NCBI GenBank assembly: GCA_000002435.2
Contig: CM018791.1
Length of the DNA stretch: 64,000 bases
Reading direction: 5' to 3' (one strand)
From: Giardia intestinalis
Taxonomy: Eukaryota
A program made the translations under genes and the position numbers. Below, one piece after another: positions 24,173 through 37,150 of this stretch. The notes beneath the pieces were generated by a model, which saw nothing but the letters and a program-made list of their open reading frames with translations, was not told where the DNA came from and made no database searches. The stretch's first letter is position 1. Every line of letters begins with the position of its first letter.

Positions 24173-27100
24173 GGAGGAGATCCAGCTCGACGGTCTGGGT
24201 CAGCACGGTGTAGATGCCATCAAGCTCGAGCTGGCCGCTCTTCTTAACCTCCCACCCAGACGTTCTCAGACACCACCAGGTGCTTACGGACGAGGGCTTC
24301 ACCTACATTGTCATAGACCGCCACGACAGTACCCTCGAGCGCCCCCTCGCCAAGCACAAACGAGGGAGGATCCCCGTCCCTATCACTATGATCCTCTCTG
24401 TCATGAAGCAGGTCGCTGCCGCCCTCGCCTACCTCCACGGCCTCAGTGGGGCAAACACTAGAGGCCTCGTCCACTGCGACCTCAGGCCTGCCAACGTCCT
24501 TATCAGCGCAGATGGTGAGTACTTCATCATCGCTGGCCTCGAACTCTGCAAGGACGCCCTGTGGAGTGAGAGCACCATTGCAGGCATGGCAGCGTACATG
24601 GCCCCCGAGGTGCTCCTCCACAACGAGCCCAGCCCCGCCTCTGACGTGTGGAGCCTCGGGGTCATCGTCTACGAGATGGCCACTCTAAGGAAACCGGACT
24701 TCCTGAAAGGTAAGGAGCCAGCAGAGGTCTTCGTCGATGAGTGGAGGCCGGACCTGAGCGGTGTCACTGATGGCTTCATACAGAATGTTCTGGAGAGGAT
24801 CTTTGTATTGGAGCCAGAGAGGAGGCCGACAGCCAGTGAGCTGCATGAGACACTCACTGCGGCTGACATCCCAGTTGGTGAGCTGGGGGGTCAGTGCGTG
24901 ATGCTGAAGTACAAGTGCGGATCCTTGGAGGCTGCGCTGAATGGCGCTAACGCCAGGATCGCGCTGCTGGAAGAGGAGGTTAAGACTAAATCCACTAAGA
25001 TCGACGCACTTGAAGACCAAAGTAAGGAGCACCTAGTCATGATTAAGGCACTGGAGAATAGGCTTGCACAGTTCGGTGACAGGATGAACACGGCTGGCCC
25101 TCAGTCCAGCCTCTTTTTGTTGCCCAGGCTGATGCGTGCTGCGCATACGAACGGCATGGAGACCGTCCGGATGCTGCTTGAAGAAAGACTCGGTGTTGGT
25201 CAGCGTGACGCACAGGGGATGACGGCCCTCATGCACGCGGGCCAGCAGGGGCATGTTGATCCCGTCGAATTGCTTGTTGGGGAGGAGAATGGCCTCCGGG
25301 ACAAGAGCGGCTGGACTGCGCTCATGCACGCCGTACACAACAACCATCCTGAGGTAGCCAAGATTATTGCCCCCTACAAGCATAGGAAGAGGAATAGGGA
25401 CAGCCGGACTGCTCTGATGATGGCCGCAGAAGAGGAGTATGCAGAGATTGTTTCCCTTCTGGCCCCACATAAGACTGACAGTGAACGCAACACAAGCTTG
25501 ATGAATGCTGCAACTAACTCGCCTGCAAAAACTGTTGAGGTGATGGTTGGGCATGAATATGGTTTTGGAGACTCGCATGGCCGTGCCGCTTTGATAATAG
25601 CAGCGTAGGAGGGAAATCTTAAGACGCTCAGAGCCCTCATTGAGTACGAGAAGGGGCTGAAGGATAATAATGGTTGCACTGCCCTCGTCCACGCAGTTCG
25701 AGTTGGTCACCGGGATGTTGCAAAGCTTCTCATGATACAAGAGAAGGACGCCGCTGGCTGGACAATGCCCATGTACACCGCAGCACTCGAAGACACGGAC
25801 ATGGTGTCCCAACACCTCGATGAAAAGGATCAGAGGGACAAGCAAGGCCAGACAGCCCTCATCATCGCTGCCCAGAACGGAAGGGGCGAGACGGTGAAGC
25901 TTCTGATGAAGCATGAGAATGGTGTCCCTGGCTTGATAAGCCTTATCTGCTCAGCGTGTCTTGGCGACGTCTATGCAGTCAAGAGCAGTATCCACGAGAA
26001 GGGGCATGCAGACATCATTGGGATGACGGCATTCATGTGGGCTGCATACCAGGGCCATCAGGGAGCAGTGGAGATCCTCCTCGAACACAAGAAAGGGATG
26101 GAGGACAAGGACGGGAACACAGCCTCCGCGTACACCCTCATGAACAAGCATACAAGCATAGCCATATTTCTTCGCGAGCATGAGGCTCCCTGTGGACCCC
26201 TTTCATGTGTGCATCCTTCACTGAAGAAATTGGCATGGTGAGGAAGCACTTTTCTGAAACGAAAAAAGAAACAATGATGATAAGACTGTGCTAACAACGC
26301 TGCAAAAACAAGATATGAAGATGTTATGGAATTCGTCGATTCAATCAATAACAAGGGTGTCATACGCTCATGTGAGCCGCCGACAGAAATGGCCCAGCAG
26401 CTGTGAAGGAGCTTGCTTCGCTTCAGGCAGGCAGAAGGCGTCATGATACCTCAATATAGACAACTGGATTATATACAAGGGAACTACGCTGATAAGAGCA
26501 GCGGCGTGTGACCATACAGAAGTGACGAGATTGCTCCTGGAGAAGGAGGGAAGTGTGCAGAATAATCGCAGTAAGACAATCCTCATGCTAACAATACGTA
26601 ACGATCAGATAGAGTGCGCGAGACTCCTTGCAGAGAAGGAGAGTGATATAAGTAAGGGCACACTCTTAGGCATAGCCAGACAGAGAGGCAATGAAGGCCC
26701 TCTTCTTGGAGTAGCCAAAGTAAACAGTGAATATCTCTACATCAGATCTCCACACAGGTAATAGCCTCTGCCTTTGAAGACACATGCACAGATACTACCA
26801 TCTTCATATCATGATGACTGTAGCGCAGATCTCGGCAGTAGTAGCCGCTACTCCATGCTCCAGGGTTCTGTGCTGCTGGGGTCTATCTTGGCTTTGTTTA
26901 AAGATCTCACAAGCAAGCTTCCCTCAGTTCCTAGCCATCCCCAGAGATGAAGGGTAATCGCGGATAGCATAGTGAAAGATTTCCCTCTATCAGTACTCCA
27001 GAGCCTGGCGCCCCCTTCGATCGCTCAACGGGCGTGTGCTCAGGCCGAATGTGCTTCCAGAAGTGCTCGCACGCCAGTCTGTCCAGGCTCCGACCTTCTC

Positions 27101-27844
27101 ACGGCCTCGTGTGGTCCCTAGCGGCGACCTCCTCTTTGGTCCTGCTTCATAGCGGGCGAGGGCGGGTCTTTGCGTTCGTTTTACAATGCATCCATCTGTC
27201 ACGACGGCAGTAACCATTGAGGCTCTGGCTCCATTGATGGTCCTGATGCAGCGAGAGTCTATCCTGGCAATATGGAGTGGGCGGGGCTGTGGGTCTGTGG
27301 CTCGCTATGAGGGGGCGTCGTTATTTATCTTTGGCCGTTGCTTCTTCTATGAACGGGTAGGCCCTCTATCGCCGTGGCCCTTTGGGACTGATGATGGTTG
27401 CTTCTGTTGCCCCTCGGTGTCTGATCAGTCCGTGGTTCTGGGCCAGCGCTCCTTCTCAGTCGCAGTCATTCTGGTTCCATAGTGGGTCCGCTTGGTGGTT
27501 GGAAATAGGCTGACAGGGGGCAGTTGCTGGGTACTCATCAGCTGCCACATGGACAGCAAGAGCCAGGCAGAACTCTCGGTGCCCGCTGGTGCCATGGACT
27601 GGACTGAATGGGTGGTGTCCGCCTGTGCCCCTGTCTTCTCGCTGTGGTGTCTATCTGGTCGCTGGATAGCACCCACGCCCACCGCCTTGCACTTGTGACG
27701 GGCTCTGCTCTGGTCGCCGGGCTGGTCTGATCTCCAGCTTGCGTTGCACTCCCCGAGACACGGAGGCAACGATTGCACGGGGCCCCTGGTTGTCCCTCTG
27801 CACCAGTGGAGGAGAGCCCTTGTCTGTTGTCTACGATCAGCCCA
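24173..27844. repeat. left arm of a 3.67-kb inverted repeat (partner 33479-37150)
   Basis: Mirror-image identical ORF translations (24214..25608+ equals 35715..37109-, and others). Coordinates sum to 61323 throughout. Direct comparison of the ends shows one mismatch near 27799. The inner edge frays to about 85% identity for roughly 55 bp (27845-27900). Confidence 0.95.
24214..26241 (+). pseudogene. NEK-family kinase + ankyrin-repeat gene fragment (copy 1). The N-terminus is truncated and there is an in-frame TAG. Frameshifted ankyrin remnants extend downstream to about 26761.
   Basis: The kinase homology begins at subdomain IV-V (HPDVL..IVIDRH). It continues through HCDLRPANVLI, YMAPE and DVWSLGVIVYEMAT. 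The Gly-loop and VAIK are absent, and a TAG precedes the ATG. An in-frame TAG at 25606-25608 splits a 676-codon frame that continues into ankyrin repeats. Further ankyrin-like sequence (26450-26761) lies in a different frame. Confidence 0.7.
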
Positions 27845-36400: not shown

Positions 36401-37150
36401 ATCCGCACTTGTACTTCAGCATCACGCACTGACCCCCCAGCTCACCAACTGGGATGTCAGCCGCAGTGAGTGTCTCATGCAGCTCACTGGCTGTCGGCCT
36501 CCTCTCTGGCTCCAATACAAAGATCCTCTCCAGAACATTCTGTATGAAGCCATCAGTGACACCGCTCAGGTCCGGCCTCCACTCATCGACGAAGACCTCT
36601 GCTGGCTCCTTACCTTTCAGGAAGTCCGGTTTCCTTAGAGTGGCCATCTCGTAGACGATGACCCCGAGGCTCCACACGTCAGAGGCGGGGCTGGGCTCGT
36701 TGTGGAGGAGCACCTCGGGGGCCATGTACGCTGCCATGCCTGCAATGGTGCTCTCACTCCACAGGGCGTCCTTGCAGAGTTCGAGGCCAGCGATGATGAA
36801 GTACTCACCATCTGCGCTGATAAGGACGTTGGCAGGCCTGAGGTCGCAGTGGACGAGGCCTCTAGTGTTTGCCCCACTGAGGCCGTGGAGGTAGGCGAGG
36901 GCGGCAGCGACCTGCTTCATGACAGAGAGGATCATAGTGATAGGGACGGGGATCCTCCCTCGTTTGTGCTTGGCGAGGGGGCGCTCGAGGGTACTGTCGT
37001 GGCGGTCTATGACAATGTAGGTGAAGCCCTCGTCCGTAAGCACCTGGTGGTGTCTGAGAACGTCTGGGTGGGAGGTTAAGAAGAGCGGCCAGCTCGAGCT
37101 TGATGGCATCTACACCGTGCTGACCCAGACCGTCGAGCTGGATCTCCTCC
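33479..37150. repeat. right arm of the 3.67-kb inverted repeat (partner 24173-27844)
   Basis: Reverse-complement identity to the left arm. The outer end lies 17 bp upstream of the VSP ATG at 37167. Confidence 0.95.
35082..37109 (-). pseudogene. NEK-family kinase + ankyrin-repeat gene fragment (copy 2, identical to copy 1 including the internal TAG)
   Basis: ORFs 35715..37109(-) and 35082..35591(-) translate identically to 24214..25608 and 25732..26241. Its ATG lies 57 bp from, and divergent to, the VSP ATG at 37167. Confidence 0.7.

What the first reader, a model, noticed from the sequence alone, without database searches (positions are those of the whole stretch)
24173..37150. 13-kb palindromic module made of 3.67-kb near-identical inverted arms around a VSP-containing spacer, abutting a second VSP
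This is seen directly. Arm 24173-27844 is the reverse complement of 33479-37150. I could find only one substitution (near 27799 / 33524). Each arm carries the same truncated NEK-kinase-ankyrin pseudogene. The 5.6-kb spacer holds a GC-rich ORF-free island and a tail-defective VSP gene. The outer edge of the right arm sits 17 bp from the ATG of an intact repeat-rich VSP, so the VSP start and the pseudokinase start are divergent and 57 bp apart. The inner arm ends fray: about 55 bp at roughly 85% identity, then unrelated sequence. This suggests the spacer or arm ends have been remodelled since duplication. The near-identity of 3.7-kb arms implies very recent duplication or ongoing gene conversion. 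Such a palindrome could drive recombination, inversion or silencing of surface-antigen genes, since hairpin or antisense transcripts from the arms would run into the VSP. VSP genes are known to occur in arrays and inverted pairs. Here, though, the palindrome arms are not the VSPs themselves but a kinase-ankyrin pseudogene cassette framing them.
Basis: partly seen in the sequence, partly recalled or inferred. Interest (0 to 1): 0.75.

Follow-up and report, generated by a model that had tools for sequence, protein, structure and literature searches.

The report
Old Giardia inverted duplication, kept identical
The 13-kb palindrome in the Giardia WB genome is real, but it is an old inverted duplication of a dead kinase-ankyrin gene whose two copies stay identical by copying from each other, one more case of a known Giardia pattern and with no sign that it controls the neighbouring surface-antigen gene.

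Summary
Arms 24173-27852 and 33471-37150 (3,680 nt) differ at 3 positions, all in the last 40 nt. A further ~50 nt match at 88%, and the spacer is 5,618 nt.

The window is Giardia intestinalis WB. The arms carry the annotated genes 'Kinase, NEK' (464 aa) and 'Ankyrin repeat protein 1'. The spacer gene is 'High cysteine membrane protein Group 6', a VSP-like gene with a TGG>TAG stop 9 codons before its end. The adjacent VSP matches vsp4 (GL50803_137744) and has 35 perfect 120-nt repeats.

Comparison across isolates explains the structure:
- Assemblage B lacks the whole ~19.5-kb island.
- Assemblage E (P15) has one intact 818-aa NEK there. It is collinear with the left arm and runs past the arm's outer edge, so the left copy is ancestral and the right copy derived.
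- The A2 isolate DH has the same four junctions. Its arms match each other (453/453 nt outer, 98.8% inner) but are only 82-93% identical to WB's arms.
- WB's nonsense codon sits in both WB arms and is absent in DH.

The duplication therefore predates the A1/A2 split and is homogenised by arm-to-arm gene conversion. The frayed inner ends are unconverted margins. It is not an assembly artefact. A role in VSP silencing or switching is unsupported. It is a new member of a known kind.

The parts
24045..24172 (+). Degenerate N-terminal remnant of the ancestral NEK gene (about codons 11-53 of the P15 orthologue), lying outside the left arm. It contains an in-frame stop.
   Evidence: tblastn of the P15 818-aa NEK: residues 11-78 match 24045-24248 at 71% identity in frame +3, with a stop in 'GIV*SLKG'. 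BLASTN of the P15 locus runs to 24069, past the arm edge.
24173..27852 (+). Left arm of the inverted repeat. This is the ancestral, in-situ copy.
   Evidence: Collinear with the single NEK of assemblage E. Independent WB-like read assemblies cross its outer junction at 100% identity (L017-L020).
24214..25608 (+). ORF annotated 'Kinase, NEK' (464 aa; KAE8302957/XP_001709944). The kinase domain starts at Pfam profile position 55, followed by ankyrin repeats. It ends at a nonsense codon (25606-25608) where DH and P15 have Gln.
   Evidence: Pfam Pkinase 8.7e-24 and Ank_2 1.9e-25. Exact-sequence look-up. Alignment to P15, 'IAA*EGNL' against 'IAAQEGNL'. DH has Q at this position.
25732..26241 (+). 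ORF annotated 'Ankyrin repeat protein 1' (169 aa). It is the in-frame continuation of the same ancestral NEK-ankyrin gene after the nonsense codon.
26459..27852 (+). Non-coding inner tail of the left arm. It becomes GC-rich from about 27000.
   Evidence: No Pfam hits. Composition. No match to the P15 intergenic region.
27853..27903 (+). Left frayed margin: the end of the original duplication, not homogenised in WB.
   Evidence: 49 nt at 88%. Four-way WB/DH alignment.
27904..31178 (.). GC-rich (60-72%) island in the spacer with no detectable coding sequence. Conserved in DH at 87-90%.
   Evidence: No Pfam hit, no Rfam hit, no VSP/HCMP tblastn hit. DH contig L033 is collinear.
31179..32933 (+). 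VSP-like gene annotated 'High cysteine membrane protein Group 6' (584 aa). A TGG>TAG nonsense at 32931-32933 removes the last 9 residues (WWFIGRRKA). The original stop is at 32958-32960.
   Evidence: Pfam VSP 4.9e-78. Look-up KAE8302959. Translation and sequence. The DH orthologue is intact at 592 aa. The 593-aa paralogue P0003 is shown.
33419..33470 (-). Right frayed margin.
33471..37150 (-). Right arm of the inverted repeat. This is the derived copy. It starts at codon 53/54 of the ancestral NEK and so lacks the N-terminus and the original promoter.
   Evidence: The same junction is present in DH.
35715..37109 (-). Second copy of the 'Kinase, NEK' ORF (KAE8302961/XP_001709953).
35082..35591 (-). 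Second copy of the 'Ankyrin repeat protein 1' ORF (KAE8302960/XP_001709951).
37151..37166 (+). 16 nt of unique sequence between the arm and the VSP ATG. It carries the CAATGTT initiator, which overlaps the start codon.
   Evidence: Sequence. The CAATGTT initiator is listed for vsp4 in the Adam 2010 supplement.
37167..41630 (+). Intact VSP (1,487 aa, CRGKA tail). Inferred to be vsp4 / GL50803_137744, which was collapsed to 4 repeats in the 2007 assembly.
   Evidence: Pfam VSP 3.5e-62. C-terminus ...[10 protein letters not shown]. 87 + 35 x 40 = 1,487 aa here against 87 + 4 x 40 = 247 aa for vsp4, with TR120, chromosome 3 and CAATGTT all matching.
37284..41496 (+). Tandem array of 35.1 copies of a 120-nt unit, 100% identical, inside the VSP.
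   Evidence: Tandem Repeats Finder.

Best explanation
This is an old inverted segmental duplication inside a lineage-specific 'flexible' island of Giardia assemblage A. Arm-to-arm gene conversion keeps its two 3.7-kb arms almost identical.

Shown steps:
1. The ancestral locus, as seen in assemblage B, had no insert between two conserved small genes.
2. Assemblage E has one intact NEK-ankyrin gene there, in the orientation of the left arm.
3. Before the A1/A2 split, a segment was copied in inverted orientation next to a VSP. It ran from codon 53/54 of that NEK to about 1.45 kb past its 3' end.
4. All four junctions are the same in WB (A1) and DH (A2).
5. Since then the arms have evolved together. 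Substitutions, indels and WB's nonsense codon are shared by both arms within an isolate and differ between isolates.
6. Only the innermost ~10-90 nt escape conversion and keep differences that depend on position.

Inferred points:
- The kinase cassette is a decaying Nek-GL4-type pseudogene (N-terminal stop, frameshift, nonsense codon, dN/dS about 0.5).
- The palindrome is most likely a neutral structural by-product, not a device.
- Its likely consequences are the copying of mutations between arms, a 3.7-kb substrate for inversion of the 5.6-kb spacer, and a VSP promoter region with only 16 nt of unique sequence.
For: - Inverted repeat and its mismatch gradient.
- Identity of the genes, and their presence in both the 2007 (XP_0017099xx) and 2020 (KAE83029xx) WB assemblies in the same order.
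- Independent WB-like read assemblies cross the left outer junction.
- Assemblage B lacks the island, with a ~120-bp gap between the 216-aa and 264-aa ORFs.
- P15 has a single 818-aa NEK that aligns to 24069-26458, running past the arm edge.
- DH outer junctions fall at the same nucleotide, and the DH arms are 453/453 identical while 82-86% identical to WB.
- The DH spacer contig has inverted ends (408 nt, 98.8%) and the same inner boundary. Indels are shared within an isolate, and the position-specific motifs GCTACATGC and GCC(C/T)CAGGC sit at the edge.
- The nonsense codon is in both WB arms, but DH has Gln.
- WB-DH dS is 0.05 in the flanking genes against 0.13-0.29 in the arms, with dN/dS 0.44-0.53.
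- Literature context: identical inverted vsp pairs (PMC2996952); 19 inverted VSP pairs and 6.9% of the genome duplicated (PMC7000408); the Nek-GL4 subfamily with 29 pseudogenes and five pairs over 98% identical (PMC3218828).
Against: - The DH evidence comes from three 454-era contigs that all end inside the arms. About 440 nt of the DH arm is not covered.
- Consensus sequence at contig ends inside a repeat may mix reads from both copies, which could overstate DH arm identity. The position-specific differences at the inner margins argue that the copies were assembled separately.
- The orientation of the spacer relative to the flanks could not be checked in any isolate.
- The very high A1-A2 divergence of the whole island (8-18%, against 1-3% in the flanks) is not explained by gene conversion between the arms alone.
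- No expression or small-RNA data were available, so a function cannot be excluded.
Confidence: 0.85

Rival explanations
1. The duplication is very recent, and the arms are identical simply because there has been no time to diverge. No gene conversion is involved.
For: There are 3 differences in 3,680 nt. Adam et al. 2010 and Manning et al. 2011 read identical Giardia pairs as recent duplicates.
Against: The same four breakpoints are present in the A2 isolate DH. DH's arms match each other but differ from WB's arms by 7-18%. Arm-wide indels and the WB nonsense codon are isolate-specific and are found in both arms. The inner margins are 12% diverged.
Confidence: 0.04
2. The second arm is an assembly artefact: a chimera or a spurious inverted duplication.
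For: Long inverted repeats are a known failure mode of long-read assemblers. Short-read contigs all break inside the arms.
Against: Both copies of NEK, ARP-1 and the antisense ORF, with the HCMP between them, appear in the same order in the 2007 Sanger annotation and the 2020 PacBio annotation. All four junction types are found independently in DH contigs. The left outer junction is found in four WB-like SRA runs. The frayed, position-specific inner margins would not arise from an artefact.
Confidence: 0.02
3. The palindrome is a functional element. Either it is a source of double-stranded RNA that silences NEK paralogues or the adjacent VSP, for example by read-through from the HCMP-like gene across the right arm pairing with sense transcripts of the left arm. 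Or it is an invertible switch that flips the spacer cassette.
For: The structure has been kept in both A1 and A2. The VSP start lies 16 nt from the arm. The HCMP-like gene is on the plus strand, 540 nt upstream of the right arm, so read-through would run antisense to NEK and sense into the VSP. From general knowledge, an RNAi-type mechanism has been proposed for VSP control in Giardia.
Against: The arms contain no VSP sequence. The cassette is decaying (stops, frameshift, dN/dS about 0.5). The island is absent from assemblages B and E, which also carry out antigenic variation. Inversion would not move the VSP. No data on transcripts, small RNAs or spacer orientation were available.
Confidence: 0.08
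4. The arms are identical within each isolate because each lineage replaced both copies separately by ectopic conversion from a third, unsampled Nek-GL4 paralogue, rather than by arm-to-arm exchange.
For: WB-DH divergence in the arms (dS 0.13-0.29) is close to the level seen between paralogues. The DH paralogue L032 is 85-86% identical to the WB arms. Several WB paralogues share 73-83% amino-acid identity with the arm NEK.
Against: No paralogue above 83% amino-acid identity was found in WB. The DH positional copy is only 83% identical to the DH paralogue L032. The non-coding arm tails and the single-copy spacer are just as diverged between isolates, and a kinase paralogue cannot explain that. 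Two separate conversions ending at the same points in both arms are less parsimonious than arm-to-arm exchange.
Confidence: 0.06

Closest known systems
Identical inverted gene pairs of Giardia (the vsp1267 pair; 14 identical vsp pairs in Adam et al. 2010, PMC2996952; 19 VSP pairs in Xu et al. 2020, PMC7000408)
   Same: There are two identical ORFs in inverted orientation around a unique spacer of a few kb (up to 12.4 kb in Xu's Table 2). Near-identity extends beyond the ORFs to a point of abrupt divergence. The repeats break short-read assemblies.
   Different: The arms carry a NEK/ankyrin pseudogene, not a vsp. The spacer (5.6 kb) contains a gene. Cross-isolate data show this duplication is old and homogenised, whereas those papers suggested such pairs were recent and called them 'cryptic'.
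Nek-GL4 subfamily duplicates and pseudogenes (Manning et al. 2011, PMC3218828)
   Same: It is a strain-variable NEK with a kinase domain, coiled coil and ankyrin repeats. It is pseudogenised and present as a pair over 98% identical. Many fragmentary paralogues share 60-83% identity.
   Different: GL4 membership was not tested against their classification. They read such pairs as very recent duplicates.
Telomere gene unit (cysteine-rich protein/VSP gene + gPK protein kinase + ankyrin gene; Upcroft et al. 1997 and 2010, as summarised in PMC10999387)
   Same: The right arm plus the VSP have the same gene content: a repeat-rich VSP, a protein kinase gene and an ankyrin gene. The VSP has 120-nt (40-aa) repeats, like CRP136.
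   Different: The locus is chromosome-internal. The 64-kb window has no rRNA and no telomere repeats, and conserved core genes lie on both sides. The VSP is vsp4 (GL50803_137744), not CRP136 (GL50803_103142).
Large palindromes maintained by arm-to-arm gene conversion, such as human Y-chromosome palindromes P1-P8 (Rozen et al. 2003; cited from general knowledge)
   Same: The inverted arms are over 99.9% identical around a unique spacer. Concerted evolution is shown by comparing lineages. Divergence accumulates at the arm margins.
   Different: These arms are only 3.7 kb and carry pseudogenes rather than genes protected by conversion. The organism is a tetraploid, binucleate protist.

Membership tests
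Giardia identical inverted gene pairs (Adam 2010; Xu 2020) | Two identical ORFs in inverted orientation | tested here: met
   The NEK (464 aa) and ARP-1 (169 aa) ORFs are identical in both arms.
Giardia identical inverted gene pairs (Adam 2010; Xu 2020) | Unique spacer of about 2-4 kb (up to 12.4 kb), usually non-coding | tested here: inconclusive
   The spacer is 5,618 nt, within Xu's range, but it contains a VSP-like gene.
Giardia identical inverted gene pairs (Adam 2010; Xu 2020) | Identity extends beyond the ORFs to an abrupt divergence point | tested here: met
   The outer boundary is abrupt at 24173/37150. The inner boundary is at 27903/33419 after a short frayed margin.
Giardia identical inverted gene pairs (Adam 2010; Xu 2020) | The paired genes are vsp genes | tested here: not met
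   The arms carry Pkinase and Ank domains and have no VSP domain.
Telomere gene unit (Upcroft) | Linked cysteine-rich/VSP gene, protein kinase gene and ankyrin gene | tested here: met
   VSP at 37167-41630, NEK at 35715-37109 (minus strand) and ARP-1 at 35082-35591 (minus strand).
Telomere gene unit (Upcroft) | Subtelomeric position next to rDNA and telomere repeats | tested here: not met
   No Rfam rRNA hit in the 64 kb and no TAGGG repeats. Core genes (kinesin-13, Ufm1, dynein heavy chain) flank the island on both sides and are syntenic in assemblages B and E.
Nek-GL4 subfamily (Manning 2011) | Classification by their kinase-domain phylogeny | not tested
   Their tree and gene list were not consulted. 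There is only indirect support: many strain-variable, fragmentary paralogues at 60-83% identity.
Nek-GL4 subfamily (Manning 2011) | Strain-specific gain and loss, and pseudogenisation | tested here: met
   Absent in B, single and intact in E, duplicated and disrupted in A.
Palindromes with arm-to-arm gene conversion | Arms more similar within a lineage than orthologous arms are between lineages | tested here: met
   The two WB arms are 99.9% identical to each other. The two DH arms are 100% identical at the outer end (453 nt) and 98.8% at the inner end (408 nt). WB compared with DH is 82-93%.
Palindromes with arm-to-arm gene conversion | Derived mutations shared by both arms | tested here: met
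   The nonsense codon at 25606-25608 and its mirror is in both WB arms, while DH and P15 have Gln. An 8-nt indel and longer indels are shared by both arms of one isolate only.
Invertible (flip-flop) segments bounded by inverted repeats | Both spacer orientations present in a population or between isolates | not testable with these tools
   This needs reads longer than an arm plus its flanks. Every available non-WB contig ends inside the arms.

The most novel reading that the evidence does not exclude
The identical inverted gene pairs scattered through the Giardia genome (19 VSP pairs and several NEK pairs) may not be recent duplicates. They could be long-lived palindromes maintained by frequent intrachromosomal gene conversion. 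In that case this locus would also be an active element: its arms would mediate reversible inversion of the HCMP-like cassette, or would yield sense/antisense NEK RNA feeding Giardia's Dicer/Argonaute pathway and so influence expression of the abutting vsp4.
Probability: 0.1. Interest if true: 0.6.

Novelty: new member of a known kind. Interest (0 to 1): 0.33.

Why it matters
Identical inverted gene pairs in Giardia have been called 'cryptic' and assumed to be recent (PMC2996952, PMC3218828). At this locus, public contigs from four assemblages and sub-assemblages show that the pair predates the A1/A2 split and is kept identical by gene conversion. Inactivating mutations are copied into both arms.

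If the same holds for the VSP pairs, sequence identity cannot be used to date duplications in this genome, and intrachromosomal conversion becomes a measurable force shaping the surface-antigen and NEK repertoires.

Practically, the locus is a warning for read mapping, expression quantification and gene counts, because the two 'Kinase, NEK' and two 'ARP-1' entries are one pseudogene counted twice. It is also a ready test site for inversion and conversion rates in a tetraploid, binucleate organism with very low heterozygosity.

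Tried and rejected
- rDNA or telomere origin of the GC-rich island: there were no Rfam hits at gathering score over the window or at E<=1 over 26.4-33.5 kb (two chance-level hits only), and no TAGGG repeats.
- Degenerate VSP, HCMP or reverse-transcriptase remnants in the island: Pfam on the ten longest stop-free stretches gave nothing, and tblastn with the HCMP and the VSP ends gave nothing there.
- Is the VSP CRP136? The protein search returned no close relative (a largely wasted search, since the long repeat protein is not in the collection). The Adam 2010 supplement shows CRP136 is GL50803_103142 on chromosome 4, whereas a 120-nt-repeat VSP on chromosome 3 with the CAATGTT initiator is vsp4 / GL50803_137744.
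- Ectopic donor for the arms: the DH paralogue L032 is no closer to either isolate's arms than the arms are to each other across isolates.
- Comparing spacer orientation between the 2007 and 2020 assemblies through accession order of small ORFs: the ORFs tested are not in the collection, so this stayed unresolved.
- Paralogous WB loci (P0003, P0052) could not be fetched because the WB assembly is not in the gene-position index.
- Upcroft 2010 (PMC4506791) is not held, so the telomere-gene-unit description rests on a secondary source.

Full report
**1. Observation**

The inverted repeat is real and slightly longer than reported. The arms are 24173-27852 and 33471-37150, 3,680 nt each, around a 5,618-nt spacer. 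A base-by-base comparison finds three mismatches: 27813/33510, 27845/33478 and 27849/33474. The outer 3,640 nt are therefore perfectly complementary. After a 1-nt indel, 49 nt match at 88% (27855-27903 / 33419-33467), and then similarity stops. A self-BLASTN finds no other copy in the window.

The right arm ends 16 nt before the ATG of a VSP at 37167. The minus-strand NEK ATG is at 37109, which leaves 57 nt between the two start codons.

**2. Identity of the parts**

Exact-sequence look-ups place the window in Giardia intestinalis WB C6, on a 1.97-Mb chromosome.

- *Arm genes.* Each arm carries the ORFs annotated 'Kinase, NEK' (464 aa; KAE8302957 and KAE8302961, XP_001709944 and XP_001709953) and 'Ankyrin repeat protein 1' (169 aa; KAE8302958 and KAE8302960). 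Pfam shows a kinase domain that begins at profile position 55, followed by ankyrin repeats. Read in frame, the two ORFs are one gene interrupted by a stop at 25606-25608.
- *Spacer gene.* The gene at 31179-32933 is annotated 'High cysteine membrane protein Group 6'. It is a VSP-family protein (Pfam VSP, 4.9e-78) that ends ...GFLC*WFIGRRKA*. A TGG>TAG change removes its last nine residues. Its 593-aa paralogue has the full WWFIGRRKA tail. That paralogue fits vsp2/GL50803_113512 of Adam et al., which is listed as 593 aa with a GRRKA tail on chromosome 3.
- *Adjacent VSP.* The VSP at 37167-41630 (1,487 aa, CRGKA tail) holds 35.1 perfect copies of a 120-nt unit. Its length, 87 + 35 x 40 aa, together with the CAATGTT initiator and the chromosome, matches vsp4/GL50803_137744. 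That gene was collapsed to 4 repeats (247 aa) in the 2007 assembly. It is not CRP136, which is GL50803_103142.
- *GC-rich stretch.* It runs from about 27.0 kb, inside the left arm, to 31.0 kb in the spacer. It has no Pfam, Rfam or VSP/HCMP similarity.

**3. Not an artefact**

- Both copies of NEK, ARP-1 and an antisense ORF (GL50803_115770), with the HCMP between them, appear in the same positional order in the 2007 Sanger annotation and the 2020 PacBio annotation.
- Contigs from four independent WB-like sequencing runs cross the left outer junction at 100% identity and stop 128-244 nt inside the arm, as expected for a repeat.
- All four junction types are also found in another isolate (section 4).

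**4. Comparison across assemblages**

- *Assemblage B.* In contigs L028-L030 the conserved 216-aa ORF lies about 120 bp from the conserved 264-aa ORF. The whole ~19.5-kb island (about 23.6-43.1 kb in the window) is absent.
- *Assemblage E.* In P15 (L031), the same site holds a single intact 818-aa NEK-ankyrin gene in the orientation of the left arm. Its DNA aligns to window 24069-26458, which runs beyond the arm's outer edge into the left flank. The alignment to the right arm stops at the arm edge, 37148.
- *What the P15 protein shows.* By tblastn, the left flank of WB still encodes residues 11-78 of the ancestral protein (24045-24248). That stretch has an in-frame stop and a frameshift near 24248. 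The arm boundary falls at codon 53/54.

The left copy is therefore the ancestral gene in place, and the right copy is a derived, 5'-truncated duplicate.

**5. The A2 isolate DH has the same structure**

Three DH contigs cover the island, and all three end inside the arms.

- L021 runs from the left flank into the arm.
- L025 runs from kinesin-13 through the VSP into the right arm.
- L033 (6,587 bp) is collinear with window 27622-33701. Its two ends are inverted repeats of each other (408 nt, 98.8%).

A four-way alignment puts the outer breakpoint at the same nucleotide in WB and DH. The inner breakpoint is at the same place too.

The DH arms are 453/453 identical at the outer end. Against the WB arms they are only 82-93% identical, while the core flanks are 97-99% identical.

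Substitutions and indels, including an 8-nt indel and two longer ones, are shared by both arms of one isolate and absent from both arms of the other.

WB's nonsense codon is in both WB arms, whereas DH and P15 encode Gln there. The TAG in the spacer gene is also specific to WB, and the DH gene is intact at 592 aa.

**6. Interpretation**

A single inverted duplication happened before the A1/A2 split. Since then the arms have been homogenised by arm-to-arm gene conversion in both lineages.

Without conversion, the arms should differ by at least the A1-A2 neutral distance. That distance is dS about 0.05 in the flanking genes, which would mean on the order of a hundred or more differences in 3,680 nt. 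Only three are seen.

The frayed inner ends are the unconverted margin. The last ~10 nt group by position: GCTACATGC in WB-right and DH-right, and GCC(C/T)CAGGC in WB-left and DH-left. The limit of identity also differs between isolates, at about 27812 in WB and about 27893 in DH.

The cassette looks like a decaying pseudogene. Between WB and DH its dN/dS is 0.44-0.53, against 0.01-0.13 for the flanking genes, and it carries several disruptions.

**7. What is not explained**

The whole island is 8-18% diverged between WB and DH. This includes the arms, the single-copy spacer and the VSP flanks. The core flanks are only 1-3% diverged, and arm dS is 0.13-0.29 against 0.05.

A DH paralogue (L032) is not a plausible donor. 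Possible causes are a high local mutation or recombination rate, exchange with unsampled paralogues, or old haplotypes. Ankarklev et al. 2015 describe such 'flexible' regions with high diversity around VSP, HCMP and NEK genes.

**8. Function**

Nothing in the sequence indicates that the palindrome regulates the VSP.

- The arms contain no VSP sequence.
- The right-arm NEK points away from the VSP.
- Recombination between the arms would invert only the spacer.
- Assemblages B and E lack the structure altogether.

One scenario cannot be excluded. Read-through from the plus-strand HCMP-like gene would run antisense across the right arm and into vsp4, and it could pair with sense NEK RNA from the left arm. 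I rate this at about 0.1.

**9. Relation to what is known**

- Identical inverted vsp pairs with 2-4 kb spacers and abrupt divergence points are documented. They were called 'cryptic' and possibly 'relatively recent' (PMC2996952).
- The 2020 reference reports 19 inverted VSP pairs and 6.9% of the genome as duplications (PMC7000408).
- The kinome paper reports the fast-turnover Nek-GL4 subfamily, with 29 pseudogenes and five pairs over 98% identical (PMC3218828).
- The gene content VSP + kinase + ankyrin resembles Upcroft's telomere gene unit. This locus, however, is internal and has no rDNA or telomere repeats.
- I found no paper describing this particular palindrome, or gene conversion between Giardia inverted pairs.

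**10. Verdict**

The locus is a new member of a known kind. The useful new point is that arm identity here reflects concerted evolution rather than recency.

Noticed in passing
window 37284-41496: The VSP carries 35.1 copies of a 120-nt (40-aa) unit at 100% identity with no indels. The same gene seems to have been collapsed to 4 repeats (247 aa, vsp4/GL50803_137744) in the 2007 assembly. The exact 1,487-aa protein is not in the 15-billion-protein collection. The DH orthologue is called at 495 aa, with repeats about 97% identical to WB's.
   Followed up: partly
window about 23500-43100, compared with L021, L025 and L033: The whole assemblage-A island (arms, single-copy spacer, VSP flanks) is 8-18% diverged between WB (A1) and DH (A2). 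Adjacent core genes are 1-3% diverged (dS 0.05 against 0.13-0.29). Arm-to-arm conversion cannot explain this, and the cause is unknown.
   Followed up: partly
window 27000-31000: A 4-kb GC-rich (58-72%) stretch has no ORF, Pfam, Rfam or VSP/HCMP similarity. It starts inside the left arm and continues into the spacer. It is conserved at 87-90% in DH. Its origin is unknown.
   Followed up: partly
window 32931-32933: A WB-lineage TGG>TAG nonsense truncates the HCMP Group 6 / VSP-like gene 9 codons before its natural stop. DH keeps the intact 592-aa gene with the non-canonical WWFIGRRKA tail.
   Followed up: yes
L028-L030 13484-13605; L031 13448-17536: Assemblage B has only about 120 bp where assemblage A has a 19.5-kb island. 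Assemblage E has a single intact 818-aa NEK there. Together they form a clean three-step series of island growth at one synteny break.
   Followed up: yes
window 25033-25914 (-) and 35409-36290 (+); 37110-41741 (-): Long antisense ORFs overlap the NEK cassette and the VSP repeats. The 293-aa one was annotated as hypothetical protein GL50803_115770 in 2007. The 1,543-aa one runs antisense to the VSP repeats. They look like by-products of composition and repetition, not genes.
   Followed up: partly
window 62000-64000 and 56000-58750: A second GC-rich block (62-64% GC) has VSP-like similarity at 62454-62636 on the minus strand. Upstream of it is a NEK-ankyrin gene (946 aa in DH and P15, 947 aa in assemblage B) that is conserved in assemblages A, B and E. 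This is another NEK/cysteine-rich neighbourhood at the window's right end.
   Followed up: no
L032 (DH contig AHGT01000055, 1-6036): DH has another locus with a VSP, an ankyrin ORF and a related NEK fragment within about 6 kb at a contig end. Its NEK is 85-86% identical to the WB arm kinase, which suggests the VSP + ankyrin + kinase grouping recurs in the genome.
   Followed up: partly
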